DNA of 32,000 nucleotides. Source: Candidatus Saccharimonadota bacterium (GTDB lineage Bacteria; Patescibacteriota; Saccharimonadia; Saccharimonadales; UBA4665). The position numbers and the translations under genes are program-made. The stretch spans positions 1,320,001-1,352,000 of the forward strand of contig CP025011.1 in NCBI GenBank assembly GCA_002952755.1, read 5' to 3'. The notes beneath the pieces were generated by a model, which ran no database searches, was not told the DNA's origin, and saw only the letters and a list, made by a program, of their open reading frames with translations. Within the stretch, counting starts at the first letter, position 1, and the number at the start of each line of letters is the position of its first letter. Shown piece by piece: positions 6,358-22,091 of this stretch.

Positions 6358-6362
6358 TCTCT

Positions 6363-8383: not shown

Positions 8384-8392
8384 ATGTCTTAA

Positions 8393-8401
8393 AGTATACC
8401 A
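8393..8401 (-). promoter_or_regulatory. Extended -10 element TGGTATACT, 9 nt upstream of the ATG at 8383 (internal promoter for the minor-pilin genes)
   Basis: Read on the minus strand in the 45-nt pilD/minor-pilin gap. No Shine-Dalgarno is present. Confidence 0.35.
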
Positions 8402-8428
8402 TAAGCAGCTTCCAGGTAACGTACGTAT

Positions 8429-9217: not shown

Positions 9218-9246
9218 GGAGTCATCGTATCATAATCACTACATAA

Positions 9247-9274
9247 CAGACGAACCCCTTTCGGAGTTCGTCTG
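9247..9274 (-). terminator. Stem-loop (attenuator/terminator candidate) between pilA and pilD
   Basis: The minus strand reads CAGACGAAC-t-CC-GAAA-GG-g-GTTCGTCTG, a 9-bp plus 2-bp stem with a GAAA tetraloop. It is followed by TTATGTAGTG, a weak T tract. Confidence 0.5.
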
Positions 9275-9302
9275 CATTTGTGCCGTATCTAGAGGACCTA
9301 GA

Positions 9303-9803
9303 CTATGAGCCGGATTCCTGACACTGTACCTGCGTACCACCGCCAGTCTCTACCGAATAGAGGGCTACAACACTGCGTGAGCTAGCACTTGCTGTCGTTG
9401 CAGTCGTACCATTACACTTCAGATAATTTGCGATGAGGGCAGCATCCACCGAAGCAGGCGCGCTTGGCGCACTACCAGGAGCGGTAGCATTGTACGTATA
9501 GCTAATATTACCAGTGGTGTAGAGGCCAAGCTTTACATTGGCGATGAACGGACAGTTAGCGGCTGTCGAACATGCGCCGCTGGCTGTTGGCAGTGCACCA
9601 GCGTTGTTGTTCGTGTACTCACCAAAAGCGCTGAGCGTGTTGCCGATATCGTTTTTGCGCTGCGTGTTGCGCGAGTTACGTTGCAGAGCCGGTACGGCCA
9701 GGAACACAACGAGCAGGATCAAACCGGCAATTGCCAGCACGATCAAGACTTCGATAATCGTGAACCCCTCATCTGCTTTATGTTTTCTTAGATGTGACAG
9801 CAT
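9303..9803 (-). CDS. pilA: Major type IV pilin
   Basis: 166 aa. The leader MLSHLRKHKADEG is followed by FTIIEVLIVLAIAGLILLVVFLAVPALQRN (F+1, E+5). There are two Cys pairs, including a C-terminal disulfide loop (C...C near the end). It has its own promoter, a Shine-Dalgarno and a downstream hairpin. Confidence 0.88.
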   Translation of the reverse strand: MLSHLRKHKADEGFTIIEVLIVLAIAGLILLVVFLAVPALQRNSRNTQRKNDIGNTLSAFGEYTNNNAGALPTASGACSTAANCPFIANVKLGLYTTGNISYTYNATAPGSAPSAPASVDAALIANYLKCNGTTATTASASSRSVVALYSVETGGGTQVQCQESGS

Positions 9804-9845
9804 GTAACATGCCCCCTTTGCTGTTGTTAAACTTCTTATGTTTGA

Positions 9846-9874
9846 ATGATACGAAAGCTATGCATAAAATGCAA
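9846..9874 (-). promoter_or_regulatory. Sigma70-type promoter candidate for pilA: TTGCAT-N17-TATCAT
   Basis: On the minus strand the -35 is at 9874-9869 and the -10 at 9851-9846. A leader of about 40 nt ends in AAAGGGGG, 8 nt before the ATG. A small hairpin TGAGC-AAAA-GCTCA (9895-9908) follows the pilC stop. Confidence 0.45.
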
Positions 9875-9942
9875 TAGATTTGCGCTGCGGAAAGTGAGCA
9901 AAAGCTCATCATTAACAAAGAACGCTTGTTGCACTGCTGAAA

Positions 9943-11160
9943 TTATTGGACGAAGGACTTGCCTGCTAAACCGTAAATAGGCAATAGCACTGCGGCGACA
10001 ATAATAAAGGCGACCACACCGAGGATAACCATGAGGACTGGCTCGATGATGGTAGAGATAGATTTTACTTGGTCATCGACTTCTTTTTCGTAGTATTCGG
10101 CGGTTTTCCCGAGCATCTGCTCGAGCGAGCCCGATTGCTCACCAATGCGTATCATATTGGGCACCAGTTGCAAAAAAGTAGCATCGTTTTGAATTGAGTC
10201 CGATAGCGCTTTGCCGCCTTTTACTTTGTCTGCGGCTCTGTCCAGGGATTCTTTGACGTGGATGTTGTCAACTGCTTCGCCGGTTATTTCGAGCATTTGA
10301 ATAAGTGGCACACCACTTGCGACTAATGTCGTGCCAGTACGGGCAAAGCGTGCCATATACATCTTCATAAAGAGTGGCCCGACTGGCCACGCCTTCATCT
10401 TGAGTCGGTCAATCACCCGCCGGCCGCCAAATGTGCGAGCCCAGCGAGTAGTAAAGAAGATTAAAATACCCAAAACGATGAGTACAATCCACCAGTCATG
10501 AATAATGAAATCCGAGATACCGAGCAGGATCCGGGTAATGAGCGGCAGGGTCGCACCTGGCAAGCCATCATATAGTATTTTTACCTGGGGCAGCACTTTG
10601 ACGATCATGAAGCCAACGACACCGAACATTACTATCAGCACAATGATGGGGTACACCATGGCGCCGCGAACTTTGCTGATAAGGTCAGCATCTTTTTCCT
10701 GTTGAATCGCCAGGCGCTCCAGTGCTTTATCGAGCGTACCAGAAGCTTCGCCAGCCGCGACCAGGCTGATATATACGCGGTTGAATGCCTGTGGATGCTT
10801 GGCAAAGGCGGCTGAGAGTGTAGAGCCGGCCTCAACGTCAGCAATTACTTTACTAATAATGATCTTAAGGGGTTTGCTCTGCGTTTGCTCGTTTACTGTA
10901 CGTAACGACTGCACGAGCGGCAAGCCAGCGTTTATCAGCGTGCTCAGTTGGCGCGAAAAAAGCACTTTGTCTTTAATTTTGACGCGATTAAGCCGGCTGC
11001 TTAGGCCGGTAGCGGCTTTCTCGGCCAGTTTGATATCGATAGGCACGAAGCCTTCTTGGCGAATGAGACGGCTAGCAGATTGTTCGTCGGCAGCTTGCAC
11101 CTCAGCCTTTACGTATTGGCCGGTACCTGGGTCGCGGGCAGTGTAACGAAACGAAAGCAT
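9943..11160 (-). CDS. pilC: Type IV pilus platform protein (T2SS-F/GspF family)
   Basis: 405 aa. It has two T2SSF-type repeats and three hydrophobic segments (for example MVYPIIVLIVMFGVVGFMIV and IIEPVLMVILGVVAFIIVAAVLLPIY). Confidence 0.92.
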   Translation of the reverse strand: MLSFRYTARDPGTGQYVKAEVQAADEQSASRLIRQEGFVPIDIKLAEKAATGLSSRLNRVKIKDKVLFSRQLSTLINAGLPLVQSLRTVNEQTQSKPLKIIISKVIADVEAGSTLSAAFAKHPQAFNRVYISLVAAGEASGTLDKALERLAIQQEKDADLISKVRGAMVYPIIVLIVMFGVVGFMIVKVLPQVKILYDGLPGATLPLITRILLGISDFIIHDWWIVLIVLGILIFFTTRWARTFGGRRVIDRLKMKAWPVGPLFMKMYMARFARTGTTLVASGVPLIQMLEITGEAVDNIHVKESLDRAADKVKGGKALSDSIQNDATFLQLVPNMIRIGEQSGSLEQMLGKTAEYYEKEVDDQVKSISTIIEPVLMVILGVVAFIIVAAVLLPIYGLAGKSFVQ

Positions 11161-11172
11161 TGGTCTTCTTGC

Positions 11173-12240
11173 CTACCCTCTCATCAATCGATCAAGTTCA
11201 TCTGAATCTACTGCCACCATCTTGGCGTCGTCATAGCTAATGGTGCCGTTGTGGATAAGGTTTACCAAAGTCTTATCCATTGACTGCATGCCAAATTCGG
11301 CGCCAGTTTGGATAACCGCTTCTAGCTGGTGGGTTTTACCCTCTCGGATAATGTTGCGGACGGCCGGTGTAGCAATGAGGATTTCTGCTGAAGCAATGCG
11401 GCCGCCACCGATCTGCGGGATAAGGCGCTGAGACACGATTGACATTAAGATATTGCTGAGCTGGGAACGAATCTGAGGTTGTTGGTGTGGTGGGAAGACG
11501 TCAATCATACGGTCGATACTTTGAGCAGCGCTGTTGGTGTGCAGAGTAGCAAACACTAAGTGGCCTGTCTCGGCAATGGTGATGGCTGAAGCAATAGTTT
11601 CAAGATCGCGCATTTCTCCGATAAGTACCACGTCTGGGTCTTCGCGCAGAGCGCTCCGTAAGGCTGCGGAAAATGAATAGGTATCGTAGTGTACTTCACG
11701 CTGCACAATCACCGATTTCTTAGAGCGATGGGTGTATTCGATAGGGTCTTCAATGGTGATGATGTGTTCGGCGCGCTCCATGTTGATCTTATGGATCATA
11801 GCGGCAAGGGTTGTGGACTTACCGGAGCCCGTGGGGCCAGTTACCAGCACAAGTCCCCGGGGGTAGTCAGCGAACTTACTGACAATTGGCGGCAATCCAA
11901 GTTGCTCGATGGTTAAAATCTCGTTGGTTATCAAACGTAGCGCAGCGGCCAGATTACCGCGCTCGTGGAAGGCATTGACACGGAAGCGACCAAGCTCGCC
12001 GAATGCAAAGCTGAAGTCAAACTCTTTGTCCTTTAGGAGAATCTGCTTTTGATCTTCGTCGAGTATGGCAAAAATCAATGTTTCAACAGCTTCGTCGCTC
12101 AATACATCGGCACCAGCGACCGGCATCAACTTGCCATCTACTCGAATCATGGGCGGCAGGCCGACTTGCAGGTGCAGGTCGGAAGCTTTCTTTTTTACTA
12201 CTTCTTCGAGGAGTACTTCGATTCGGGGTGTGTTTTGCAT
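11173..12240 (-). CDS. pilT: Type IV pilus retraction ATPase
   Basis: 355 aa. The motifs present are Walker A GPTGSGKSTT, EDPIEY, Walker B DPDVVLIGEMRD, His box TGHLVFATLHTN and the PilT-type AVRNIIREGK motif. Confidence 0.92.
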   Translation of the reverse strand: MQNTPRIEVLLEEVVKKKASDLHLQVGLPPMIRVDGKLMPVAGADVLSDEAVETLIFAILDEDQKQILLKDKEFDFSFAFGELGRFRVNAFHERGNLAAALRLITNEILTIEQLGLPPIVSKFADYPRGLVLVTGPTGSGKSTTLAAMIHKINMERAEHIITIEDPIEYTHRSKKSVIVQREVHYDTYSFSAALRSALREDPDVVLIGEMRDLETIASAITIAETGHLVFATLHTNSAAQSIDRMIDVFPPHQQPQIRSQLSNILMSIVSQRLIPQIGGGRIASAEILIATPAVRNIIREGKTHQLEAVIQTGAEFGMQSMDKTLVNLIHNGTISYDDAKMVAVDSDELDRLMRG

Positions 12241-12264
12241 ATGTCTTTGTCCGCCTTCTCGTTT

Positions 12265-14079
12265 TTAAGCGCTATCGGCGCTTGCTACGCGGTTAATTTC
12301 GGTAAGGGTTGTACGCCCTGCCAGCGCTTTAAAGTAGCCATCCTGGCGCATGCTGACCATTCCTTGGGCCTGGGCAGCTTTTTCGATTTCGGCGCTCGTC
12401 GCATGCTTTAGGATAAGCTCCTGGATCGGCTCGGTGACGTTAAACACCTCGTAGATACCCATGCGGCCCTTATATCCATTGGGCGCCTCGGGGCTATCTT
12501 TGCCCTTGGTTAAAGTATAAGCGTTTTGATTGCTGAGTGGCAAGGTCTCGTAGCCTAAATCGGTGGCAAATTTAGGCATATCCTCGGCGTTTTTAGGCAG
12601 TAAGTGACCGATTGTCTTTTTGATGGCTTCAGTTTCGACTTTGTCGGACTCATACGTTTCATTGGTGGTGCTGACGCGCCGTACCAGGCGCTGCCCAATA
12701 ACGGTGCGTACGGTACTGGCAATAAGAAACGGCTCGATGCCCATGTCAAGCAAACGCGGCAAAATACCGGCAGCAGAGTTGGTGTGCAGCGTGCTAAATA
12801 CGAGGTGGCCGGTAAGGGCGGCCTGAACGGCCAGCTCGGCCGTTTCTTTGTCGCGGATCTCCCCCACCATGACGACATCGGGGTCCTGACGCAGGATAGA
12901 GCGCAAGCCGTTTGCAAACGTTAACCCAACATCAGCATTCACCTGGATCTGGTTAATACCGGGCATCTTATACTCGACCGGATCCTCCAGCGTGACAATG
13001 TTAATAGCATCGCTCTTTACTTCCTGCAAGAGCGCATACAGCGAAGTAGACTTACCCGAACCAGTTGGTCCGGAGGTAAGGATCATACCGTTGCTGCCCT
13101 TGAGCCCTTCACGAATAGTGCGTAGCGCTCGGCCGGTGTAGCCCATATCTTCCAGCTTGAGGCTCGTGCCGCTCTTATCGAGCAACCGGATAACAACTTG
13201 TTCTCCCCAAACTGTGGGGCTGATAGCAATACGTAGGTCGATATCGCGTCCTGAGACACTCACGGTGAATTCACCGTCCTGAGGAATGCGGTGTTCGTCG
13301 ATCTTCAGATTAGCCAGAATCTTGATGCGGGATACGAGGGGTGGCTCGGTGCTTTTAGGTAGTCTCAGTACCTCGCGGAGAATACCGTCAATCCGGCAAC
13401 GGATTTTTAATGAGTCTTGCAGGGGTTCGATGTGTACGTCGCTTGCGCCATTTTTTGCGGCATATTCCAAAATTGTGGACAATGCCTTGCTGATTGGCGA
13501 ATCCTGCACGATGGTTTTTATATTAGCCGCTTTGCCGCCTTCTTTCGGTGCAGGCGCTGCCTCTTCAGCTTGATCTGCAGTCGCGGAAGAACTAGAGCTG
13601 AGCCCGCTGATTTCACCAACCACTTGCTTGGAAATGTTCGCCTGGTATTGCTTGAGCACCTGGCGAATACCCGCCTCGGATGCGGCATACACCTTCAGTG
13701 GACGACCAATCTTGTTGCTTAAGAAGTCGACCGCTTGCACGTTATCGGCGTCAAGCATCGCTACCACGAGACGGTTCTGCATCTCCCCCAAGGGCACGGC
13801 CATATACCGTTCAGCAACATCCTCTGGAAGCAATTCTAGGATTTCTGGTTCAATCTTTGCCGAACTCAAGTTGACATAGGGTACTTTCGCAACTTGTGCT
13901 ATGGTCTTCGTTAATGTTTCTTCGCTAACTTTGCCGTCGCTTACCAGCAGACTTAATAGCGGAATACTCTGCTTAGCAGCCTTGTCTTTCACTTCGGCAA
14001 GCTGTTCTGCAGATAGAGCGCCACTTGCGACTAATGTTTCCTCAACCTGCTTTTGGGCGGCAGTGGATAAAACGCTCAT
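12265..14079 (-). CDS. pilB: Type IV pilus assembly (extension) ATPase, GspE/PilB family
   Basis: 604 aa. There is an N-terminal T2SSE_N-like domain. The motifs present are Walker A GPTGSGKSTS, EDPVEY, DPDVVMVGEIRD and TGHLVFSTLHTN. Confidence 0.92.
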   Translation of the reverse strand: MSVLSTAAQKQVEETLVASGALSAEQLAEVKDKAAKQSIPLLSLLVSDGKVSEETLTKTIAQVAKVPYVNLSSAKIEPEILELLPEDVAERYMAVPLGEMQNRLVVAMLDADNVQAVDFLSNKIGRPLKVYAASEAGIRQVLKQYQANISKQVVGEISGLSSSSSATADQAEEAAPAPKEGGKAANIKTIVQDSPISKALSTILEYAAKNGASDVHIEPLQDSLKIRCRIDGILREVLRLPKSTEPPLVSRIKILANLKIDEHRIPQDGEFTVSVSGRDIDLRIAISPTVWGEQVVIRLLDKSGTSLKLEDMGYTGRALRTIREGLKGSNGMILTSGPTGSGKSTSLYALLQEVKSDAINIVTLEDPVEYKMPGINQIQVNADVGLTFANGLRSILRQDPDVVMVGEIRDKETAELAVQAALTGHLVFSTLHTNSAAGILPRLLDMGIEPFLIASTVRTVIGQRLVRRVSTTNETYESDKVETEAIKKTIGHLLPKNAEDMPKFATDLGYETLPLSNQNAYTLTKGKDSPEAPNGYKGRMGIYEVFNVTEPIQELILKHATSAEIEKAAQAQGMVSMRQDGYFKALAGRTTLTEINRVASADSA

Positions 14080-14095
14080 GTACTGCCTCTATACC

Positions 14096-14347
14096 TTATT
14101 GTGGTTTGCTGTTGAATGGGTTGGGGTTATTATTATTACCGACTTGTACGGGAAGCGTGGGATTTATTGCATTAGAATTGAAATAACGCGACGGTGGACT
14201 GGGGAAATTAGCCGTAATAGGATCCACAACTTCGGCAGTTTGTTGTCTATTCTTGGGCGATGAGAAAAACAGGTTCGACACAAAAAGCGATACGATGGCA
14301 CCAATAAAAACCATTACGAGGACAAGGGCGATATCCTTTTGTTTCAT
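14096..14347 (-). CDS. Small single-pass membrane protein in the PilP position (function unknown)
   Basis: 83 aa. One TM segment (IALVLVMVFIGAIVSLFVSNLFF) is followed by an N/P-rich tail. It has an ATGA overlap with pilO and GAGG 7 nt upstream of the downstream pilB start. Confidence 0.55.
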   Translation of the reverse strand: MKQKDIALVLVMVFIGAIVSLFVSNLFFSSPKNRQQTAEVVDPITANFPSPPSRYFNSNAINPTLPVQVGNNNNPNPFNSKPQ

Positions 14348-15018
14348 TTCACTACCTCGTTCGTAATGTTAAGCGTTTTACCAGGCTGATAATAGGTCTG
14401 GGCGGTAAACGTGGCGTTCATACTGCTCTCGTCGCCGGATAATTCGATCGTTTGGACCTGAAACGGACGAATGGAATGCAGGAGAACGTCGTTGAGATTT
14501 TGGATTAATTGGTACGGCCCATTGACATTAACCTGGAAAGGCATGGCAACGGCGGTCGGTGTAGGACTCGTTTGTTTATTACCTTCTGTAGCTTGTAAGT
14601 CGGTGCCCGTGATGGACAAAATCTTTAACTGTTGGTTGTTGATTATCTTCTCTAGGCTCGTAGTAAGTGCTGGAAAATCATAGCTGCTCGGCAACGAGTC
14701 AAGGATCAAGGTCGCGTTATCACCGTCTTGCGCGTCAGTCCCGCCCGCATTGCCACCCAGAACATTAGGATTCTGCGCAACAAAAGAATTGTATGACGCC
14801 TGGAGGTTGTCGCGGGCATTCAGATCGGTTTTTAGCTGAGCGAGCGCTGTCTTTTTGGTAGAAATCACTCTGTTTTGGTATGCCATTTGGCTGAGTAGTG
14901 ATTTACCTGCTACCAAGGTAAATACAAAAATAAATGCTGCAATAGTTGTCGCGGCAACCATGTTGCTATTTGCTTTCCCGATCAACGCTCGCTTGGTAAA
15001 TGCCGTCGTGCGCGCCAT
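14344..15018 (-). CDS. pilO: PilO-like pilus alignment protein (start trimmed from the ORF-track 15273)
   Basis: The sequence MARTTAFTKR... is followed by a TM segment (MVAATTIAAFIFVFTLVAG), a coiled-coil and an alpha/beta C-terminal domain. The ATG at 15018 lies 1 nt after the pilN TGA. An ATG at 15030 is an alternative start. The 5' part of the 309-aa ORF overlaps pilN out of frame. Confidence 0.7.
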   Translation of the reverse strand: MARTTAFTKRALIGKANSNMVAATTIAAFIFVFTLVAGKSLLSQMAYQNRVISTKKTALAQLKTDLNARDNLQASYNSFVAQNPNVLGGNAGGTDAQDGDNATLILDSLPSSYDFPALTTSLEKIINNQQLKILSITGTDLQATEGNKQTSPTPTAVAMPFQVNVNGPYQLIQNLNDVLLHSIRPFQVQTIELSGDESSMNATFTAQTYYQPGKTLNITNEVVK

Positions 15019-15019
15019 A

Positions 15020-15694
15020 TCACTGTCCATCCGTCTTCTTAAAAAGTGCTGGACTTGCCGCGCCGCCGCTATCACGAGTGGTGACATTTGGCACGGTGAG
15101 CGTGACGTCGGAAGCTTCACTGAACAAAGCCGGGTCGAAAGCAAGTGAAATGGTGTATGTGGCGCTCTTGCTATCACGGCCGAAATTACTGAGAACAACA
15201 CTAGAGAATGCCGGACGTTCGGCCGCGGGCGCAACCGTTGTGTGATATGTGGCAAATTTAAGTGCATCGGCAAAACCGTTAACAGTGCTCAGTGAATCAG
15301 CAACTCCGGAAATTTGGATGGTATGCAGGCCGAAGTCAGCATTCAGGCGGGTAATGCTGGCTGCCGATGGAGTTACTTGAGTCATAAAACCATACAAACG
15401 ACTAGTGACGGGCTTGGCGTTATGCAGCGAAGACAATGAGGCGAGCTGGTTTTGCACAGTTAACATCCGATTTAAATTCGGGGTACTTTTGAGCTGAGAA
15501 CTATCCTTTGTTATATCACGGCTTAGGTCACTAATGTTTTTCTTTTGCAGTCCAAATACAATCATCATAAGGATAGTAAGCGTCGCCACCGATGCCAATG
15601 TGACGACTGTTGAACCCAGCATAACCAGGTGTTTTTGCCGCCTAGCTTTTAGATATTGTATCTTGATGTCGGGGAGTAAATTAAACTGAATCAT
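15020..15694 (-). CDS. pilN: PilN-like pilus alignment protein
   Basis: 224 aa. It has the N-terminal IQFNLLPD motif (the PilM-binding INLLP type) followed by a single TM segment. It overlaps pilM by 4 nt. Confidence 0.82.
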   Translation of the reverse strand: MIQFNLLPDIKIQYLKARRQKHLVMLGSTVVTLASVATLTILMMIVFGLQKKNISDLSRDITKDSSQLKSTPNLNRMLTVQNQLASLSSLHNAKPVTSRLYGFMTQVTPSAASITRLNADFGLHTIQISGVADSLSTVNGFADALKFATYHTTVAPAAERPAFSSVVLSNFGRDSKSATYTISLAFDPALFSEASDVTLTVPNVTTRDSGGAASPALFKKTDGQ

Positions 15695-16731
15695 TCGTTT
15701 CGCTCCGCAAGTCCGGCAGCAACACCGAAATGGTTAGAAACTGCCAGCAGTTCGTTCTGACGCTCCGGGGCGAATGACACATTACGCCAAGCGTTACCAA
15801 TCTCTACCTCTATGCCAAATTTATTGGCAAGATACAGGGGGAACTCTGGCAAAGCCGATGCCCCGCCGGTTACGATAATACGACTCACTGGAGCGTTCAC
15901 GTAACGGCTCTGGAAAAATTTGATCGACTTGTCTATTTCACTGGTAAGCATATCGACGGTGCTGATAATCGCTTCGTAGATTCTACCTTCCAGTTTGTCT
16001 TTCGCCATACCGAACTTGAACACAAATTGCCTGGCTTGTCTGTCGTCGATGTTCAGGTTCTGGGCGGCGGAGCGAACAATTGCTTCGGCTCCGGTCGGAA
16101 TGGAACGCGTCAACCGGGGTGCGCCGTTCATGGTTACGACAAGATCAGTACTCTTGCTGCCGATATCCAGAACCATTTGTGGTTGAAAATTATCGCCAGG
16201 GATTAAAGCTCGGGTGAGTGCTAAATTATCGGGTTCGAAAGCAACGACATCCAAACCGATCGACTCGAGCAGGTCAAGACGCTGCTCGACAAAATCATTC
16301 TCGACACTACTAAGTAGTACTTCAACTTTCGTTTTATCTTTGGGGGAATCGCCAATCACGGCATAGTCAATCTTGGACTTGTCCAGAGGTGTAGGAATCA
16401 GCGAATCAGCCTGATAACGGATGGCTTTGTTCAATTCATTGGCAGGCAGGCGCTCGAAGTCAACCACTGCAGTAAACACACGTTGGGACGGCACGCCAAC
16501 GGCAACATTTTTAGTATTTAGGTGCGCTTGGTCGATGAGCTCCTTAATGACTTGGGCCAGGCGCTGTTGGTCAGTCTTGGAATCGCTCAGAACAATTTTG
16601 CTGTCTACAGGGACATACGCGTAGCGGACCAGACTCTTAACCTGTCCACTGCCATGCAGCTGAACGGCTCGGATCGCGGTCGTGCCAATGTCCAGGCCGA
16701 AGAATGACGATACGCCAGATAATAGACTCAT
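15691..16731 (-). CDS. pilM: PilM, actin-like ATPase-fold pilus assembly protein
   Basis: 346 aa. It has the N-terminal FGLDIGTTAIRAVQL phosphate-1-type motif and a later VLDIGSKSTD motif. It occupies the first position of pilMNO. Confidence 0.88.
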   Translation of the reverse strand: MSLLSGVSSFFGLDIGTTAIRAVQLHGSGQVKSLVRYAYVPVDSKIVLSDSKTDQQRLAQVIKELIDQAHLNTKNVAVGVPSQRVFTAVVDFERLPANELNKAIRYQADSLIPTPLDKSKIDYAVIGDSPKDKTKVEVLLSSVENDFVEQRLDLLESIGLDVVAFEPDNLALTRALIPGDNFQPQMVLDIGSKSTDLVVTMNGAPRLTRSIPTGAEAIVRSAAQNLNIDDRQARQFVFKFGMAKDKLEGRIYEAIISTVDMLTSEIDKSIKFFQSRYVNAPVSRIIVTGGASALPEFPLYLANKFGIEVEIGNAWRNVSFAPERQNELLAVSNHFGVAAGLAERNE

Positions 16732-16778: not shown

Positions 16779-17732
16779 TTAGAGAATAGGGGGCAGACTG
16801 GTAATTGCATCGTAGTCCACGCTTGTTGGACCAGATGTTGGCTGGGGAATCCAGAATGCTGGACCGTAGTTGAAGACTTCGCCAATATTAGGGCTCCCGC
16901 TCGACTCACCAGTGCTGCTGGTGCCAACCGTGCCGTTCGTACGTAAAAGCTGCACCTGTTGAGCAACGAAGGCGCCGTTCACTGTTAGCTTATTATTACA
17001 ACTGGTAAAGAAATTGGGACTGGTGGGTGCTACGGGCGTCTGGCCTGCTGCACAGGTGTAGATAGTACCTCCTTGAGCAATATATGTGCCGTCGAGCTGT
17101 GTCACACCGCCATCAATATAGATATTGCCTTTAGCAACAATCTCAAGCAAAGGTATCTTATCTACGGTCCAACTGCCTAAGTAGGTTATTTTACCGTTGA
17201 TAATGACATCGCCATTTACATAGATGATTACTTTTTGACCAGCTGCTAACGTGTCGTTGCCAAATGTTACTGGACCAGATGCTGTATATGGACCATTTAA
17301 GGAAGCGAGCGGATGAGAGGCCGGCAAAACCGCACCGCTTGGCGTGCCGTAATAGTTGGCCATACATGGCAGGGTACCAAGGTTGCCGCCGAAGCTGCTT
17401 GGTAGTGCAGTAGATGTGTTAGCAAATGCTAGTCCACTCGGGGTAGACACAGCGCTAGCCGCGTTGCCCAGGTTGGTAGCAACATCGTAGATTTTATCGA
17501 GTGCCAGGGCAGCATATTGCACACCTGCTCCGCCGTAGCCGCCACCCGCTTCTCTGTTCCAGCCCACAATACCAGCCTTTACCACTGTGCTACAGCTGGT
17601 GGGCTGGGGGTTACCGGCGGAAATATCCCCTCCGTAAGTACGGAAGTAAGGTTTAGCTGCAACAAATACGCAGTCCTCCGCACCGGCCGTACCACCCCCG
17701 AGCGATATTGGATTAATGTACAATGACCGGCA
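16779..17732. repeat. Copy A of a duplicated segment of about 0.95 kb (the C-terminal module of the large secreted proteins)
   Basis: It aligns with 19525-20487. There is a 50-nt perfect identity run at 17494-17543 = 20249-20298, plus further long identical runs such as TTGACCAGCTGCTAACGTGTCGTT. Confidence 0.9.
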
Positions 17733-19007
17733 AATAGTGGTATTTGCGGTTGTTGCCGTGACTGTTTCGGTCGCAATAGTTGGGTTGCTAAAGGGGCCGA
17801 CCACGATAGGACACGATGTTCCAGGCCCCGGTCCAGCAAGCACCTCCCCGCCACCAACTGGCGGATGGCGGCCGCCAAACGTCTGTGCGTAGGTCGTGCA
17901 GTTTGTCGGATCACTTGCGCCGCTTGTTGGATTGCTAATGATGTAATTAAAGGTAATCGAATCGCCTGGCTCTACGACGTTACCAGGTGGCGAATGGCTG
18001 ACAATGGGCTGCAGGTTGAATGCCGCCCGCGGTATATATTGATACTGTAAGTTGTAGCATACGCCGGCGGCGCGTCCGCCCGGATCTACGGTGTCGAAGA
18101 TCCCTTTGTCGGCCACCATTACACCCAGCCAGTTCGTTCCTGCGTTGAGGAAGCTCTTCACCGCTGTCAGGTCCAACGACACTTCGCCAACTGTAGATGT
18201 CGAATATGCCCCTACTGCTCTGCCGTTCACATAGACTTGCAGCCAGTCGTCGGCATATGCCTGGAAATACAAATGAGTCGTGCCCTGCCCTAGCCGGGTT
18301 ATATCCGTAGCGCTCAAATTGAAACTATCCCGCATGAGCGTTACCCCATTCGAGTAAAGCTTGGTTGACTGCGCAGTGCCGCCCGGATATTGATCAAAGT
18401 ACAACCCTTTCACCCATGCACCGCCTATATCGCCGGCAGTTTGCGTTAGATAAAACTGATCACTGTTATCCGGACCTGGCGCGCCCCAAACAGCCCGAGC
18501 ATTGCCGCCTATAAGCGACCCGTTTGAGCATCCGGCCATTACATTAGACCACGACCCGTAAGCCCCATGCCAGGCCGGGGCTGGGAGGCCTGTCGCCCAA
18601 AGGCCTTGCGCATCCGGATGAATCCACGCGCCGCCGCTCACGACTCCATCGCTGGCATTGGTACCAGCATCCACATAGCGATCGAAGCAGTTTGAGCTGA
18701 GATTCATTACGTCACCGCTGTAAGGGCCATACTGCGGTTGCCAAGGCAGAGCCTTATAGCCAGTAGCATTTGGTGGACAACCATCACTGCGTTTTGGCCA
18801 GTTGAGTTGATTTTTGGGGATATTTCCATAGCCACGCAAGCTATACCAGCGCGTTTGGAGTGAACCCGACGAGCTAGTAACCATATTCTGAATGACGGTT
18901 GCCGCTGACGCCGATCGCGCGGGCAACATAACCGATAAAGCCGACAGCAGCCCTATTATTGATACGAAGGCTACCATCGACCGCGTTGTTCTACATTTAA
19001 AGATCAT
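16779..19007 (-). CDS. Large secreted protein, paralog A: signal peptide, lectin-like jelly-roll head, Ig-like domain and conserved C-terminal module (putative adhesin)
   Basis: 742 aa. The signal peptide is MIFKCRTTRSMVAFVSIIGLLSALSVMLPARSASA/AT. The head contains LYFQAYADDWLQVYVNGRAVG...LNAGTNWLGVMVAD. Residues 426-742 are highly similar to residues 343-662 of the 19525-21513 product. The protein ends ITSLPPIL. Confidence 0.85.
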   Translation of the reverse strand: MIFKCRTTRSMVAFVSIIGLLSALSVMLPARSASAATVIQNMVTSSSGSLQTRWYSLRGYGNIPKNQLNWPKRSDGCPPNATGYKALPWQPQYGPYSGDVMNLSSNCFDRYVDAGTNASDGVVSGGAWIHPDAQGLWATGLPAPAWHGAYGSWSNVMAGCSNGSLIGGNARAVWGAPGPDNSDQFYLTQTAGDIGGAWVKGLYFDQYPGGTAQSTKLYSNGVTLMRDSFNLSATDITRLGQGTTHLYFQAYADDWLQVYVNGRAVGAYSTSTVGEVSLDLTAVKSFLNAGTNWLGVMVADKGIFDTVDPGGRAAGVCYNLQYQYIPRAAFNLQPIVSHSPPGNVVEPGDSITFNYIISNPTSGASDPTNCTTYAQTFGGRHPPVGGGEVLAGPGPGTSCPIVVGPFSNPTIATETVTATTANTTICRSLYINPISLGGGTAGAEDCVFVAAKPYFRTYGGDISAGNPQPTSCSTVVKAGIVGWNREAGGGYGGAGVQYAALALDKIYDVATNLGNAASAVSTPSGLAFANTSTALPSSFGGNLGTLPCMANYYGTPSGAVLPASHPLASLNGPYTASGPVTFGNDTLAAGQKVIIYVNGDVIINGKITYLGSWTVDKIPLLEIVAKGNIYIDGGVTQLDGTYIAQGGTIYTCAAGQTPVAPTSPNFFTSCNNKLTVNGAFVAQQVQLLRTNGTVGTSSTGESSGSPNIGEVFNYGPAFWIPQPTSGPTSVDYDAITSLPPIL

Positions 19008-19467
19008 AAGCTACCGTTAGTACATGGTTCGTTTTCGAATTATAAGACAGATTGGCGTGCGTCCCTGCCTTTAAACCGCTGGCGGTGGCTGTTGCATAGG
19101 TAGCTCCCTTGGTATATGTAGTTGCGGACGTAACAGTCAAAGTAACGGGTTGGTCCAAGCCATTTGCTAGAAATTTCATGGTTGTACCATCGAACGATTG
19201 TACTAGTCCTCCTAATGCCACGGTTTCGTGTGCTTCGTCTATCTGTTGCTGTGTTATAGCCGGATACACGGGGTGATCAAGCGATTTTTCGATCTTAGCG
19301 ATTTTAGCAGCAAGCTCTTTGGATTGCTGATGCCTATGCCACTGCCATCCCCCGAGGCCGCCGGCTATTCCGAGTACGATTACCACGCCAGCCGCAATTC
19401 GAAACTGCTTGGTCCTCCACCAATTATGACGCGGCTTAAAGCTACCTTGGATTATTGTTTCTGTCAT
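18997..19467 (-). CDS. Small single-pass anchor protein, partner of paralog A
   Basis: 156 aa. The N-terminus ...NWWRTKQFRIAAGVVIVLGIAGGLGGWQWHRH contains one TM segment. The ectodomain is T/A-rich and beta-like. It overlaps the 742-aa gene by 11 nt. Its N-terminal 45 aa or so are paralogous to the 21510-22049 product. Confidence 0.7.
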   Translation of the reverse strand: MTETIIQGSFKPRHNWWRTKQFRIAAGVVIVLGIAGGLGGWQWHRHQQSKELAAKIAKIEKSLDHPVYPAITQQQIDEAHETVALGGLVQSFDGTTMKFLANGLDQPVTLTVTSATTYTKGATYATATASGLKAGTHANLSYNSKTNHVLTVAYDL

Positions 19468-19524
19468 ACCTGTCTACACCAATAATAAAACAAAAGCGGC
19501 TTGATTTGAACTCTTCGTGTGACT

Positions 19525-20487
19525 TTATAGAATGGGCGGCAAACTTGTGATCGAGTCGTAATCTGTACTTGTGGGCCCCAAAGTAGGCTGTGGAATCCAA
19601 AAAGCCGGACCATAATTGAATGTTTCGCTGATATTTGTACTTGTATTGGGTTCTGTGGCGCTACTTCCCCCAAGGCTGCCGTTGGTACGCAACAGCTGCA
19701 CTTGCTGAGCAATAAACGCGCCATTTACGACTAGCCTGTTGTTGCAGCTCGAAAAGAAACTGGAACTACTAGGCGCAACCGGCGTTGTTCCTGCTGCACA
19801 GGTATAAATGGTGCCCCCCTGTGCAATATACGTGCCATCGAGCTGCTTTACTCCACCATCAATATAGATGTTACCTTTGGCTATAACCTCCAGCAGGGGT
19901 ATCTTATTCACCGTCCAGTTACTCAAGTACGTAATATTGCCATTGATAACTACGTCTCCATTCACATATATGATCGTCTTTTGACCAGCTGCTAACGTGT
20001 CGTTACCAAATGTTACGGGGCCAGTAGCGACGTATGGACCGTTTAAGGATGCGAGCGGATGAGAGGCCGGCAAACCAGTGCCGCTTGGCGTCCCGTAGTA
20101 GTCTGGCATGCATGGCAGCACCGGGCTGGCGCCGAAGTTGCCGCCAAAACTGCCCGGGGCAGATGTTGCAGTATTGGCGAAGGCCAGGCCGCTCGGTGCA
20201 CTTACAGCGCTTGACGCATTCCCTAAGTTGGTGGCCACATCGTAAATCTTATCGAGTGCCAGGGCAGCATATTGCACACCTGCTCCGCCGTAGCCGCCTG
20301 CGGCCTCGGTGTTCCACCCCACAATGCCCGCTTTTATGGCTGAGCCACAACTCCCAGGTTGCGGGTTGCCTGCTGAAAGATCGCCACCATACACGCGGAA
20401 ATAGGGCCTGGCAGTGACATACACGCACGCCTCGTACCCCAGCGGACCGCCCGATGGCTTGCTGGGATTAACGTACAATGATCTACA
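19525..20487. repeat. Copy B of the duplicated segment of about 0.95 kb
   Basis: See copy A. The offset between the copies changes by 9 nt along the alignment, which corresponds to three codon indels. Confidence 0.9.
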
Positions 20488-21513
20488 AACCGAGCTGTTA
20501 GCCGGCACGTTATTTACTGTTTCGTTTCCTAGATTTGTTGTGCCAGGACTAAAAGTACCAGTGCAGGCAGGCCCAACGGGCGTCCCCCCGCTGCTGTCGG
20601 CTGGGCTCGGGATAGTGTGAAAACCAGGAAATATATTGGCGTACATGTTGCAGGCGATGCCTGTTGCTGTACTCGGCGTACTATTAGAAACGCTGTAGCC
20701 AAAAGTAATAGAGCTACCGGCATCAACGTAGCTGCTATTTGGAAGAGGGCCGCCATTCTGAGAAATAGTTATGCTGGGCGTTACATTATAGCTCGGCACG
20801 GCGGCAGGCTTGCTGAGCGGCTTTATGGTACCCATGGGATTTAAGCAAAGGCGCCGGGCCTTCCACAAAAGATTCCCGCTTTTATCAAAAAACTCGATGT
20901 GGTCGTACCGTGCTGTAGCGCTGCCACATCCTCCGGTGGTATTGCCAGGGCTAATAATAAAAGGGGCAATATCGTTACGATTTACCTGGTAAATTGAGTT
21001 GTAGTCGCCGCAGTGCATATAGTCGCTATGGAACCAGTCGATGTGACCGTTCTGACCGAACGATTGGCTGCCGTTTTCGCTGGCATTAGCATAGCTCTTT
21101 ACACGACCTTCAAAGTCGAGGATCTGTGCGGCAGTGACTGTCCTCGCAGCTCCCGTGCTAAGTGGCGGTGCGGGGAGCGGCGCGCCTATTACGATACGAA
21201 TGACAAACGCACCTTCAGTGATGCGCTGTCTGTTGCCCGACTTGTAATCGCCCTCAATCATAGTAATAAAAGCTTGCGCCGTATTGACGCTGGCGGGCAC
21301 GCCGGCGGCGCGGACATTGGGACCGAAGTCTTCGTAGGTGTTCGAAAAATAACCGCACCACTCATTGCGGCCAAACATAATGGGCGGCGGTTTACACGTC
21401 CCTACCGTTCCGGCCGCGGCGTTCTGCGCAAGCGATGGCAGCGCGACTCCTAAGGCCGAGACGGCAACAAGGGCAGCCACCAAAAAAACAAGTAGACGGC
21501 GCACGTATTTCAT
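19525..21513 (-). CDS. Large secreted protein, paralog B: signal peptide, unrelated Cys-containing head, Ig-like domain and conserved C-terminal module (putative adhesin)
   Basis: 662 aa. The signal peptide is MKYVRRLLVFLVAALVAVSALGVALPSLA/QN. The head (about aa 31-240) has no similarity to paralog A. From CRSLYVNP onward it is near-identical to paralog A. It ends ITSLPPIL. Confidence 0.85.
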   Translation of the reverse strand: MKYVRRLLVFLVAALVAVSALGVALPSLAQNAAAGTVGTCKPPPIMFGRNEWCGYFSNTYEDFGPNVRAAGVPASVNTAQAFITMIEGDYKSGNRQRITEGAFVIRIVIGAPLPAPPLSTGAARTVTAAQILDFEGRVKSYANASENGSQSFGQNGHIDWFHSDYMHCGDYNSIYQVNRNDIAPFIISPGNTTGGCGSATARYDHIEFFDKSGNLLWKARRLCLNPMGTIKPLSKPAAVPSYNVTPSITISQNGGPLPNSSYVDAGSSITFGYSVSNSTPSTATGIACNMYANIFPGFHTIPSPADSSGGTPVGPACTGTFSPGTTNLGNETVNNVPANSSVCRSLYVNPSKPSGGPLGYEACVYVTARPYFRVYGGDLSAGNPQPGSCGSAIKAGIVGWNTEAAGGYGGAGVQYAALALDKIYDVATNLGNASSAVSAPSGLAFANTATSAPGSFGGNFGASPVLPCMPDYYGTPSGTGLPASHPLASLNGPYVATGPVTFGNDTLAAGQKTIIYVNGDVVINGNITYLSNWTVNKIPLLEVIAKGNIYIDGGVKQLDGTYIAQGGTIYTCAAGTTPVAPSSSSFFSSCNNRLVVNGAFIAQQVQLLRTNGSLGGSSATEPNTSTNISETFNYGPAFWIPQPTLGPTSTDYDSITSLPPIL

Positions 21514-22049
21514 TGCTGCTCCAGTTCATCGATGCTCGCTTGAATGGCAGCGGCGTCATTTCCCGTTTGGCCATGCTGGATTTTAGCGTAAGCTAGCGCA
21601 ATCTTATACTCGGCGAGCGCCTGGTCTTTCTTGCCTAGTCGCTCGTAAATTGTGCCTATAGCGTATGCATCCGGTTTGGCAGTGGAGGGATCCGCCTGAT
21701 GTTTCAAATCATAATAATGAAGTGCGTCGGCTAGCTTATTCGCGCCAAGCGCGGCTTGCGCCTGTCCTTGATATACTTGGGCCTTTTGCTTGCCACTGGT
21801 AGCTAGTGCGGCCATCCCGCCAAGCAAGTTGATAGCATTCACGTCATCACCTCTGTTGTAGGCATCTGTTGACTGGGCGATCGCGGCATTTACTTGCTTG
21901 GTGTGCTGGGTAGTAACCGCGTGATTATGCCAATGCACCCCACCCCCTACTAATGCAACTACAAAAACCGCGGCGATACCAAGATTGCGCGTCGTAAACC
22001 ACCCCTTATATTGGACGGGATTCAGTTGTCCTACTACTGGTTTATCCAT
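21510..22049 (-). CDS. Small single-pass anchor protein with TPR-like ectodomain, partner of paralog B
   Basis: 179 aa. The N-terminus ...GWFTTRNLGIAAVFVVALVGGGVHWHNH contains one TM segment. The helical repeats ALHYYDLKHQADPS...AIGTIYERLGKKDQALAEYKIALAYA are TPR-like. It has an ATGA overlap with the 662-aa gene. Confidence 0.7.
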   Translation of the reverse strand: MDKPVVGQLNPVQYKGWFTTRNLGIAAVFVVALVGGGVHWHNHAVTTQHTKQVNAAIAQSTDAYNRGDDVNAINLLGGMAALATSGKQKAQVYQGQAQAALGANKLADALHYYDLKHQADPSTAKPDAYAIGTIYERLGKKDQALAEYKIALAYAKIQHGQTGNDAAAIQASIDELEQQ

Positions 22050-22062
22050 AAACCTTATGGTT

Positions 22063-22091
22063 ATAATACTCTCCCTCTGCCTCTGTGTTAA
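22063..22091 (-). promoter_or_regulatory. Promoter candidate for the anchor/adhesin genes: TTAACA-N17-TATTAT, with the -10 13 nt from the ATG at 22049
   Basis: Read on the minus strand in the AT-rich 148-nt divergent intergenic region. Confidence 0.3.

What the first reader, a model, noticed from the sequence alone, without database searches (positions are those of the whole stretch)
16779..22049. Tandem duplicated 'anchor + giant secreted protein' modules heading the type IV pilus locus: a candidate modular adhesin system
Reading the minus strand from 22049, the order is:
- a 179-aa single-pass protein with a TPR-like ectodomain;
- an ATGA overlap into a 662-aa signal-peptide protein;
- a 57-nt gap;
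- a 156-aa single-pass protein with the same N-terminal architecture but an unrelated ectodomain;
- an 11-nt overlap into a 742-aa signal-peptide protein;
- a 47-nt gap, then pilM.

The two large proteins share an Ig-like domain and a C-terminal region of about 320 aa. Their N-terminal heads are unrelated. The two small proteins share their membrane anchor, but their ectodomains are unrelated. So the variable parts differ module by module while the constant parts are maintained.

I see no LPXTG motif, no autotransporter barrel, no PilY1-type propeller or Ca-site, and no family I can name for the constant module. It has beta-helix-like repeats such as IIYVNGDVIINGKITY and AKGNIYIDGGVTQLDGTYIAQGGTIY.

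The adjacent T4P locus has a minor-pilin quartet but no PilY1-like tip adhesin. My hypothesis is that these are swappable pilus-associated or surface adhesins, each with a dedicated membrane partner. That would be relevant to host-cell recognition if the organism is an episymbiont, since T4P have been experimentally linked to host association in Saccharibacteria.
Basis: partly seen in the sequence, partly recalled or inferred. Interest (0 to 1): 0.85.

Follow-up and report, generated by a model that had tools for sequence, protein, structure and literature searches.

The report
Pilus-operon secreted protein with membrane partner
Two tandem gene pairs at the head of a type IV pilus operon in a soil Saccharibacteria-type genome each encode a small membrane-anchored protein and a large secreted protein from a big, unnamed family that almost always sits next to pilus genes, so it is probably an accessory pilus-linked surface or adhesion factor that published studies of these bacteria have not described.

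Summary
Four minus-strand ORFs of 179, 662, 156 and 742 aa lie at the stated coordinates with the stated overlaps and gaps, directly upstream of pilM. The two large proteins share an Ig-like domain and a ~300-aa C-terminal module (80-81% identical); their heads are unrelated.

The large proteins belong to a large unannotated family, seen mostly in Saccharimonadales MAGs (about 5,400 clusters at 50% identity), with no Pfam, NCBIfam or PDB sequence match. Layout: Sec signal peptide, head, Ig-like stalk, beta-solenoid, flexible linker, near-invariant C-terminus YD[AS]ITSLPP[VI]L. The gene lies directly upstream of a T4P gene in 68 of 72 species-representative genomes and upstream of pilM in 55 of 58 loci fetched through PilM. 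It is usually translationally coupled to a single-pass TPR protein.

The pair is absent from both T4P loci of Southlakia epibionticum, so it is an accessory, not core machinery. 'Swappable heads' is only partly right: 90% of members share one head type, and a genome-specific constant module recurs in only one other locus.

Best reading (about 0.4): a pilus-linked adhesin working like PilY1 or ComZ but not homologous to either. ComZ is the closest fold, weakly. Function is untested.

The parts
22063..22091 (-). Promoter-like site upstream of the first small gene; candidate operon promoter
   Evidence: Sigma-70-type consensus match, 10 of 12. It is a consensus match only. No convincing terminator lies between the 742-aa gene and pilM.
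21510..22049 (-). Small partner 1 (179 aa): short basic N-terminus, one TM helix (about residues 22-40), exported TPR-like ectodomain
   Evidence: ORF. Weak TPR hits. Homologous partners hit TPR models in 44 of 57 cases. 4-nt ATGA overlap with the next gene.
19525..21513 (-). Large secreted protein 1 (662 aa): the common family architecture
   Evidence: ORF. Identical to P0005. Sec-type N-terminus, no LPXTG. Member of the 290-strong GYF-head cluster.
20800..21408 (-). GYF-type head of the 662-aa protein (about residues 36-238); fold and function unknown
   Evidence: Alignment A6, with invariant G19 Y20 G121 D146 G178 C188 N190 G193. No Pfam or PDB match.
19528..20418 (-). Constant module of the 662-aa protein: beta-solenoid plus linker plus tail (about residues 366-662)
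   Evidence: 80-81% identical to the 742-aa protein's module. DNA repeats at 73-74% identity.
18997..19467 (-). Small partner 2 (156 aa): same N-terminal anchor, beta-rich ectodomain that is not TPR
   Evidence: ORF. N-terminal region hits TPR_21 (YfgM-type, E 1e-5, 25.8 bits against a cutoff of 25.5). This ectodomain type is found only with 742-type heads, 3 of 3.
16779..19007 (-). Large secreted protein 2 (742 aa): rare head variant fused to the resident type of constant module (mosaic)
   Evidence: ORF. Head is 58-71% identical to P0001-P0009, while the last 300 aa are 81% identical to the in-genome paralog and only 37-53% to those head-orthologs.
18105..18356 (-). Jelly-roll (galactose-binding-like) domain in the 742-aa head (about residues 218-301)
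   Evidence: BetaGal_ABD2, E 0.011. With the Ig domain it matches the N-terminal domains of GH2 beta-galactosidases in Foldseek (E 9e-7). Local pLDDT is only 58-78.
17673..18023 (-). Ig-like (CARDB/DUF11-like) domain of the 742-aa protein (about residues 329-445)
   Evidence: Local pLDDT mostly 76-93. Foldseek matches CARDB 3idu and 2kl6 with prob 0.99-1.0. Family members hit CARDB, DUF11 and SdrD_B.
16782..17672 (-). Constant module of the 742-aa protein: beta-solenoid (about residues 446-715), low-complexity linker and conserved tail
   Evidence: AlphaFold2 model with 72-sequence alignment: pLDDT 84.8, pTM 0.85, strand-rich. Best PDB match is ComZ 6qvi (E 0.06, prob 0.99, TM 0.28), followed by ice-binding proteins, HpmA and Ag43.
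16782..16814 (-). C-terminal tail YDAITSLPPIL-COOH; the paralog's tail YDSITSLPPIL is at 19528-19560
   Evidence: Near-invariant across the family. Disordered in the model (residues 294-303, pLDDT below 50). Found only on family members among the 3,940 ORFs scanned.
5281..16731 (-). Downstream T4P operon: pilM, pilN, pilO, 83-aa ORF, pilB, pilT, pilC, pilin, pilD, three N_methyl minor pilins, PilX_N protein
   Evidence: Pfam hits. The same gene order occurs in L001-L005.

Best explanation
Each module encodes a two-protein exported unit that belongs to the type IV pilus system as a lineage-specific accessory. Shown: the large protein has a Sec-type signal peptide. It then has a head, one or more Ig-like domains, a conserved beta-solenoid, a flexible linker and a near-invariant C-terminal undecapeptide. 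Its gene is translationally coupled to a single-pass membrane protein whose exported domain is usually TPR, an architecture like YfgM. The pair sits at the head of the pilus operon in most relatives. Inferred: the conserved beta-solenoid plus tail is the docking end, and it attaches the protein to a conserved component of the pilus system. The most likely target is the minor-pilin priming or tip complex. The head and stalk project outward and bind a target; the 742-aa head, with its sugar-binding-type jelly-roll, would bind glycans. If, as I assume from background knowledge and did not test, these bacteria lack an outer membrane, nothing would confine a Sec-secreted protein. On that assumption the membrane-anchored partner holds or chaperones the large protein at the membrane next to PilMNO until it is loaded. 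In function this resembles PilY1 (Sec-secreted, conserved C-terminal pilus-binding domain, variable N-terminal adhesive domain) and the beta-solenoid tip pilin ComZ, but the family is homologous to neither. Two tandem modules would give one pilus machine two alternative heads.
For: Synteny: a T4P gene lies immediately downstream in 68 of 72 species-representative loci, and the family lies upstream of pilM in 55 of 58 PilM-selected loci. The adjacency persists in a different operon order in L079 and L083 and in L001-L005. Coupling: the small gene precedes the large gene with a 4-nt overlap in 30 of 66 pairs, and nearly all others fall within -35 to +5 nt. Exported: Sec-type signals in 240 of 249 members, none prepilin-like, and GAST 40% against 27-31% for PilB, PilM and PilT. 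Polarity: head, then stalk, then conserved C-terminal end; protein length ranges from 620 to 1,240 aa; Ig, CARDB, SdrD_B and DUF11 hits; no catalytic domain found in 72 members. The 742-aa head resembles the GH2 sugar-binding jelly-roll plus Ig pair. The constant module's best PDB neighbour is the tip-associated beta-solenoid pilin ComZ (PMC6561018). The tail is near-invariant, disordered in the monomer model and specific to the family, as expected for a docking peptide. In the window, and in L027, the constant modules of the two paralogs are closer to each other (80-81% and 91%) than to those of head-orthologs. That fits a docking module matched to one resident machine. The pair is accessory: absent at both T4P loci of S. 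epibionticum and in L107. Literature: T4P mediate host binding in Saccharibacteria, and lectin-like pilus proteins and host glycans are implicated (PMC11623550).
Against: There is no direct evidence of pilus association. No multimer prediction, localisation or expression data could be obtained. The gene is not next to the minor pilins, as pilY1 usually is, but at the opposite end of the locus. The locus already encodes a PilX_N minor pilin whose positional counterpart in S. epibionticum carries a galactose-binding-like domain, which is a competing tip-adhesin candidate. The ComZ match is weak (E 0.06, TM 0.28) and beta-solenoids match one another generically; no sequence-level link exists. 90% of members share one head superfamily. 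In the one ortholog pair compared, the head is conserved almost as well as the constant module (55% against 67%), which is not what a rapidly diversifying receptor-binding domain would show. A dedicated membrane partner fits a cell-anchored protein equally well.
Confidence: 0.4

Rival explanations
1. Cell-surface adhesin or fibril that is not part of the pilus. The large protein stays on the cell body, tethered non-covalently through its partner and/or its C-terminal tail. It is co-transcribed with the pilus genes so that close-range adhesins are available once pilus retraction brings the cells together.
For: A dedicated single-pass membrane partner is translationally coupled to the large gene. 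The head, Ig stalk and C-terminal end have the same polarity as Gram-positive wall-anchored adhesins, and members hit SdrD_B, CARDB and DUF11. Stalk length varies widely. Two copies lie away from T4P genes, L015 and L045. A multistep binding model with additional close-range adhesins has been proposed for Saccharibacteria (PMC11623550; PMC10633639).
Against: Tight adjacency to T4P genes in about 95% of loci, preserved across operon rearrangement, is stronger than co-regulation alone would require. There is no LPXTG or other known wall-anchoring signal. The partner's ectodomain type tracks the head type rather than the constant end, which is awkward for a generic anchor.
Confidence: 0.25
2. Accessory structural or assembly factor of the pilus machine. 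The secreted beta-rich protein forms a wall-spanning or surface-layer collar or guide for the fibre, and the TPR protein acts like a pilotin or assembly chaperone, by analogy with the TPR lipoproteins PilF, PilW, Tgl and TadD that assist secretins.
For: The pair heads the pilMNO operon. One head superfamily is conserved in 90% of members. In the ortholog pair compared, head, Ig and constant parts are all conserved (55%, 65% and 67%). The partner is a TPR protein.
Against: The pair is absent from both T4P loci of S. epibionticum although its T4P genes are essential, and absent from L107, whose PilM is 77% identical to the window's. Two-fold length variation, tandem paralogs with unrelated heads and lectin-like or Ig-like inserts are unusual for a fixed machine part. 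The small proteins have no lipobox; neither has a cysteine (sequences). No similarity to secretins was found.
Confidence: 0.2
3. Secreted beta-helix enzyme, such as a polysaccharide lyase or hydrolase, acting on the host's or the cell's own envelope, with the head as a targeting module.
For: The constant module has a beta-solenoid fold, a fold common in polysaccharide-active enzymes (background knowledge). Invariant polar residues D461, R689 and E710, with nearly invariant N484, N530, D551 and Q645. The 742-aa head resembles carbohydrate-binding domains of GH2 enzymes.
Against: No match to any enzyme family by sequence. The structural neighbours are non-catalytic solenoids: ComZ, ice-binding proteins, HpmA and Ag43. 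The GH2-like part corresponds only to the non-catalytic N-terminal domains.
Confidence: 0.1
4. Polymorphic toxin and immunity pair: the variable head is a toxin or effector, and the small membrane protein protects the producer.
For: Head type and small-gene type co-vary and are physically contiguous. Saccharibacteria can harm their hosts (PMC11623550).
Against: The polarity is opposite to known polymorphic toxins, which have the variable domain at the C-terminus and the immunity gene downstream (background knowledge). No toxin or defence family was hit. 90% of members share one head. The identifiable head and stalk domains are binding-type beta-sandwiches.
Confidence: 0.03

Closest known systems
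PilY1 / PilC family of T4P-associated adhesins (Pseudomonas, Neisseria, Myxococcus)
   Same: A non-pilin, Sec-secreted large protein encoded with T4P genes. It has a conserved C-terminal part and a more variable N-terminal part. Paralogs with different N-termini can occur in one genome; this last point and the general PilY1 description come from background knowledge plus PMC11623550.
   Different: No beta-propeller and no PilY1/PilC Pfam hit. The C-terminal fold is a beta-solenoid. The gene sits upstream of pilM rather than inside the minor-pilin cluster. It has a dedicated TM partner and a conserved C-terminal peptide.
ComZ of Thermus thermophilus (PDB 6qvi), beta-solenoid tip-associated competence pilin
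   Same: A beta-solenoid domain in a T4P-locus protein. It is the best PDB structural neighbour of the constant module. ComZ is argued to sit at the pilus tip (PMC6561018).
   Different: ComZ is a pilin with the solenoid inserted into the pilin fold. This family has a Sec signal, no prepilin motif (0 of 249) and no pilin domain. The match is weak (E 0.06, TM 0.28) and has no sequence support.
Wall-anchored Gram-positive adhesins (MSCRAMM type, for example SdrD)
   Same: N-terminal head, Ig-like stalk of variable length and a C-terminal attachment end. Members hit SdrD_B, CARDB and DUF11.
   Different: No LPXTG and no C-terminal TM helix with a charged tail. The protein ends in ...SLPP[VI]L-COOH.
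YfgM (Pfam TPR_21), membrane-anchored TPR protein
   Same: The small partners have the same layout: a short cytoplasmic N-terminus, one TM helix and an exported TPR domain. TPR_21 is hit by 10 of 57 partners and by the 156-aa protein just above its cutoff. YfgM's role as a translocon-associated chaperone is background knowledge.
   Different: The similarity is limited to the anchor region and generic TPR repeats. The 156-aa protein's ectodomain is beta-rich. No functional link was tested.
TM7x PilX1/PilX2 and Streptococcus sanguinis modular pilins
   Same: Pilus proteins of these bacteria that carry binding-type domains: lectin-like in TM7x PilX1/PilX2 (PMC11623550) and vWA-like in S. sanguinis PilB (abstract).
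   Different: In those proteins the adhesive module is grafted onto a pilin. Here it is on a separate Sec-secreted protein with its own membrane partner. The published TM7x locus one starts at pilM and does not include such genes.

Membership tests
PilY1 / PilC | C-terminal beta-propeller domain (Pfam Neisseria_PilC / PilY1 C-terminal domain) | tested here: not met
   No such Pfam or NCBIfam hit at E up to 1. The C-terminal module is modelled as a beta-solenoid, and no PilY1 structure appears among the listed PDB matches.
PilY1 / PilC | Sec-type (non-prepilin) signal peptide | tested here: met
   An h-region plus AXA-like site in 240 of 249 family members; none has a prepilin motif.
PilY1 / PilC | Encoded within the minor-pilin gene cluster | tested here: not met
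   The gene lies upstream of pilM, at the opposite end of the locus from the minor pilins. In L139 a minor-pilin block does lie next to it.
PilY1 / PilC | Physical association with minor pilins at the pilus tip | not testable with these tools
   No multimer prediction and no experiment was available.
ComZ-type beta-solenoid pilin | Class III (prepilin) signal and N-terminal pilin helix | tested here: not met
   No G-[FM]-[TS]-L-x-E-type motif in 249 members; the N-termini are Sec-type.
ComZ-type beta-solenoid pilin | Beta-solenoid domain homologous to that of ComZ | tested here: inconclusive
   Foldseek top hit 6qvi: prob 0.99 but E 0.06, TM 0.28, 163 columns. No profile-to-sequence match to any PDB chain at E up to 10.
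Sortase-anchored (LPXTG) surface proteins | LPXTG-like motif followed by a hydrophobic segment and a charged tail | tested here: not met
   No LP.[TSA]G in either protein. The proteins end at ...SLPPIL with nothing after it.
Autotransporter / two-partner-secretion beta-helix adhesins | C-terminal beta-barrel translocator or N-terminal TPS domain | tested here: not met
   No Pfam or NCBIfam hits. Ag43 and HpmA appear only as weak generic solenoid matches with E above 2.
YfgM / TPR_21 (small partner) | N-terminal TM anchor followed by an exported TPR domain, scoring above the Pfam gathering cutoff | tested here: inconclusive
   The 156-aa protein scores 25.8 bits against a cutoff of 25.5, over the anchor region only. 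10 of 57 partners hit TPR_21 and 44 of 57 hit generic TPR models. The 179-aa protein shows only weak TPR hits.
TPR pilotin lipoproteins (PilF / PilW / Tgl / TadD) | Lipoprotein signal (lipobox cysteine) and a cognate secretin | tested here: not met
   Neither small protein contains a cysteine (sequences). No secretin domain was found in the ORFs scanned against Pfam across the window.
Polymorphic toxin / immunity | Recognisable toxin domain with an adjacent cognate immunity gene | tested here: not met
   No toxin or defence family hits. The variable part is N-terminal and the small gene lies upstream.

The most novel reading that the evidence does not exclude
The near-invariant C-terminal peptide YD[AS]ITSLPP[VI]L-COOH, held on a flexible linker behind a beta-solenoid, is a new kind of docking tag. 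Through it, a Sec-secreted, non-pilin protein is captured at the membrane and loaded onto a type IV pilus. The capturing component would be a minor pilin, the PilN/PilO ectodomains or the TPR partner. That would be a Saccharimonadia-specific alternative to PilY1, in which different heads can be mounted on one pilus machine.
Probability: 0.15. Interest if true: 0.8.

Novelty: new variant of a known kind. Interest (0 to 1): 0.6.

Why it matters
Type IV pili are the best-supported host-attachment device of Saccharibacteria and are essential in the genetically tractable strain. Published locus definitions start at pilM and do not include these genes. A family with thousands of sequence clusters, no annotation and about 95% adjacency to pilus genes is a concrete candidate for how environmental Saccharimonadales recognise hosts or surfaces. 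Its absence from the reduced, human-associated model strain makes it a candidate marker of lifestyle differences. The conserved C-terminal peptide and the coupled membrane TPR protein give directly testable hypotheses about how a bacterium that probably lacks an outer membrane keeps a secreted pilus accessory from diffusing away.

Tried and rejected
1. Sequence searches of the large proteins and of family profiles against Pfam, NCBIfam, PHROGs, PADLOC and PDB sequences found nothing meaningful.
2. The fold search of the full 742-aa model was dominated by the jelly-roll plus Ig pair and said nothing about the constant module. The viral structure library gave no hit.
3. Head-only profile searches against the indexed protein database and PDB returned only two short fragments and a spurious haemagglutinin match.
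A short C-terminal alignment worked, but it biases that sample towards members with the canonical tail.
5. The idea that the TPR partner binds the conserved tail is weakened. The 742-type proteins keep the tail but pair with a non-TPR partner, and L001/L002 have only that pair. It is not excluded.
6. The idea that constant modules are generally kept closest within a genome is rejected as a general rule. It holds only for the window and L027. In L010, L013, L020 and L031 the paralogs are 45-58% identical in the constant module, against 70-85% to their closest relatives in other genomes. In the window the event is old: third-codon-position identity is 0.3-0.7 and the longest identical run is 50 nt.
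7. The toxin-immunity reading is rejected on polarity and on the lack of any toxin domain.
8. Exact-sequence contig look-ups for the window's own proteins failed, so the source record could not be named. The protein P0005 comes from an NCBI assembly with a 1.45-Mb contig.

Full report
OBSERVATION. pilM follows at 15691-16731. I read the junctions directly. CAATGAAATAC gives the 4-nt ATGA overlap and ATGATCTTTAA gives the 11-nt overlap. The gaps are 57 nt and 47 nt. The start of the 742-aa ORF is not certain. An ATG at codon 11 would turn the overlap into a 19-nt gap, and this exact product is absent from the public protein collection while the other three are present.

The two large proteins align over 425 residues at 67% identity (E 4e-175). 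By region, the last 300 aa are 80-81% identical, the Ig-like domain is 39% identical, and the heads give no alignment. At the DNA level there are two 300-nt direct repeats at 73-74% identity about 2.75 kb apart. The small proteins resemble each other only around the membrane anchor (E 3e-5). Downstream is a complete pilus locus: pilM, pilN, pilO, an 83-aa ORF, pilB, pilT, pilC, a pilin, pilD, three N_methyl minor pilins and a PilX_N protein.

WHAT THE LARGE PROTEINS ARE. Neither large protein matches any Pfam or NCBIfam family, apart from a sub-threshold BetaGal_ABD2 jelly-roll hit in the 742-aa head. Neither matches any PDB sequence. The word-indexed search found only 23 relatives. The exhaustive profile search found 5,400 cluster representatives at E up to 1e-3 and 3,094 at E up to 1e-30. 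Every member that carries a name is a 'hypothetical protein', mostly from Saccharimonadales, Saccharibacteria or Patescibacteria MAGs. A few records carry other phylum labels, which may be binning or labelling errors.

Family members have Sec-type signal peptides: 240 of 249 have an h-region and an AXA-like site, and none has a prepilin motif. There is no LPXTG. GAST content is about 40%, against 27-31% for cytoplasmic PilB, PilM and PilT.

The full-length 742-aa model was mediocre (pLDDT 60.7) but confident for an Ig-like domain. Together with the head jelly-roll, that domain matched the N-terminal sugar-binding and Ig domains of GH2 beta-galactosidases (E 9e-7), and it matched CARDB domains.

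A dedicated model of the last 303 residues, built with 72 aligned sequences, was good (pLDDT 84.8, pTM 0.85). It is strand-rich and solenoid-like, and only the last ten residues are disordered. Its best PDB neighbour is ComZ of Thermus thermophilus (6qvi; prob 0.99, E 0.06, TM 0.28). Ice-binding proteins, HpmA and Ag43 follow, so the fold is a generic beta-solenoid. ComZ is a pilin carrying a beta-solenoid and is argued to sit at the pilus tip (PMC6561018). There is no sequence-level support for homology and nothing in the viral structure library.

The most conserved feature of the family is its extreme C-terminus, YD[AS]ITSLPP[VI]L-COOH, preceded by a low-complexity linker. Among the 3,940 ORFs I held at that point, the tail occurs only on family members. 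It is kept in loci with a rearranged operon and in copies away from pilus genes.

WHAT THE SMALL PROTEINS ARE. The upstream partner is normally 170-205 aa. It has a short basic N-terminus, one TM helix and an exported helical domain. 44 of 57 partners hit TPR models and 10 hit TPR_21, the YfgM-type architecture. The family is very diverged (mean column identity 19%) but keeps this layout. The window's 179-aa protein is of this kind. The 156-aa protein has the same anchor (TPR_21 just above its cutoff) but a beta-rich ectodomain, and that type is found only with 742-type heads (3 of 3). Neither small protein has a cysteine, so they are not lipoproteins. Small and large genes are almost always translationally coupled: a 4-nt overlap in 30 of 66 pairs, and nearly all others within -35 to +5 nt.

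GENOMIC CONTEXT. In five loci fetched through individual homologs, the pair sits directly upstream of pilM. In 78 species-representative loci fetched through the C-terminal motif, 68 of the 72 with enough downstream sequence have a pilus gene next, pilM in 66 and pilB in 2. The two pilB cases, L079 and L083, have a different operon order (large gene, pilB, pilC, pilM, pilN). So the association is not only inherited gene order.

That sample was selected through the family itself, so I also fetched 80 loci through PilM. Of the 58 with at least 1 kb upstream, 55 carry a family member upstream, and in 52 it lies within about 750 nt. The true absences are L107, where ychF abuts pilM, then L128, and L145, where an inverted minor-pilin block intervenes and the contig may end too early.

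Tandem multi-module loci recur: two modules in L004, L013, L020, L027, L031 and L120, and three in L010. In the window, a promoter-like site precedes the first small gene and no convincing terminator precedes pilM. Co-transcription with pilMNO is therefore plausible but not shown.

ACCESSORY, NOT CORE. The window's flanks are syntenic with Southlakia epibionticum: S6, SSB, EF-P, FtsJ/TlyA and YchF on one side, and XerC, NDK and a PH-domain protein on the other. In that organism's gene table ychF ends 12 bp before pilM, and at the second pilus locus AspRS is followed directly by pilB2. So the pair is absent from both loci, although most T4P genes there are class I essential. I cannot exclude a copy elsewhere in that genome. 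The TM7x study defines locus one as 13 genes, listing machinery and pilin genes only. It names a pilin-fold protein with a jelly-roll (PilX1) as the likely tip protein. By architecture that matches the window's PilX_N gene and SEML1_0116, not this family. No paper I could search mentions the pair.

HOW MODULAR IS IT? The window's 742-aa protein is a mosaic. Its head is 58-71% identical to the heads of P0001-P0009, while its last 300 aa are 81% identical to the in-genome 662-aa paralog and only 37-53% identical to those head-orthologs. The breakpoint is near residues 445-465. The event is old or patchy: third-codon-position identity is 0.3-0.7 and the longest identical run is 50 nt. The small partner and the head-coding 5' part of the large gene are contiguous, so a single exchange could have brought in both.

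This is not the general rule. Of seven multi-module loci, only the window and L027 (91% constant, 33% head) show it. In L010, L013, L020 and L031 the paralogs have diverged along their whole length. Head diversity is also limited: 290 of 321 members fall into one head superfamily (the 662-type, with GYF and GAAFIIxTMxG motifs), and the 742-type has 11 members. Variation comes more from stalk length and inserted beta-sandwich domains, with proteins ranging from 620 to 1,240 aa.

INTERPRETATION. Shown: this is an exported two-protein unit, tightly and repeatedly linked to type IV pilus genes, accessory in distribution, and organised as head, stalk, conserved solenoid and conserved tail.

Inferred: the conserved C-terminal end docks to a conserved part of the pilus system and the N-terminal end binds a target. 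The membrane TPR partner would hold or chaperone the protein at the membrane, which would matter if, as I assume from background knowledge, these bacteria lack an outer membrane. This works like PilY1 or ComZ without being a member of either family (see the membership table). I give it about 0.4.

The main rivals are a cell-anchored adhesin co-expressed with pili (0.25), an accessory machine or assembly factor with a pilotin-like TPR protein (0.2), and a beta-helix enzyme (0.1). The machine-part reading is weakened by the absence of the pair from S. epibionticum and L107, and by the length and head variation. A toxin-immunity reading is unlikely (0.03).

VERDICT. The 'swappable adhesin' interpretation is plausible but only partly supported, and the 'no tip adhesin' premise is doubtful. 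The family is uncharacterised, large and unannotated. I rate it a new variant of a known kind (non-pilin pilus-associated accessory proteins), with interest 0.6.

Noticed in passing
window 22198-23289 and 23300-24988 (+): Two ORFs (363 and 562 aa) with no Pfam, PHROG or PADLOC hit lie between ychF (25029-26114) and the modules. AT skew is raised there (0.125-0.138). With the modules they fill about 8.3 kb where S. epibionticum has 12 bp between ychF and pilM.
   Followed up: partly
window 14096-14347 (-): An 83-aa ORF with a hydrophobic N-terminal segment sits between pilO and pilB. It is exactly 83 aa in L001-L005 and corresponds by position to SEML1_0107 (228 bp, essential) in S. epibionticum. 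It looks like an unnamed conserved T4P component.
   Followed up: partly
window 14344-15273 (-): The mechanical ORF for the pilO-like gene (TTG start, 309 aa, overlapping pilN) is over-extended. Homologs are 224-227 aa and start at MARTTAF..., which puts the real gene at about 14344-15018.
   Followed up: partly
window 2001-3065 (-): A PpiD/PrsA-like protein (SurA_N plus PPIC rotamase) lies just beyond the pilus locus. From background knowledge, PpiD is the known partner of YfgM, whose architecture the small TPR proteins share. This may be coincidence.
   Followed up: no
window 4367-5284 (+): An XerC-type tyrosine recombinase directly flanks the last minor-pilin gene. The same arrangement occurs in S. 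epibionticum (SEML1_0117).
   Followed up: no
L139 1711-4936 and L145 416-1866: In these loci a block of pilin-like genes on the opposite strand lies between the family gene and pilM. I judged them pilin-like from their N-terminal sequences only. The minor-pilin cluster therefore seems to have moved next to the family gene.
   Followed up: no
L010 2671-10525; L120 7-4856: L010 has three tandem small-plus-large modules, the third running off the locus end. L120 has two large family genes in tandem with a variant tail ...YKNQPPVL.
   Followed up: partly
P0020 / L004 8001-10823: This 940-aa member carries an insertion of about 170 aa between the Ig domain and the solenoid. By eye it resembles a LamG/DUF1349-type jelly-roll. 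I did not test it against any library on its own.
   Followed up: no
window 16779-19007 (-): The exact 742-aa product is not in the public protein collection, although the 662-, 179- and 156-aa products are. The public annotation probably uses a different start codon, or the gene may not have been called.
   Followed up: partly
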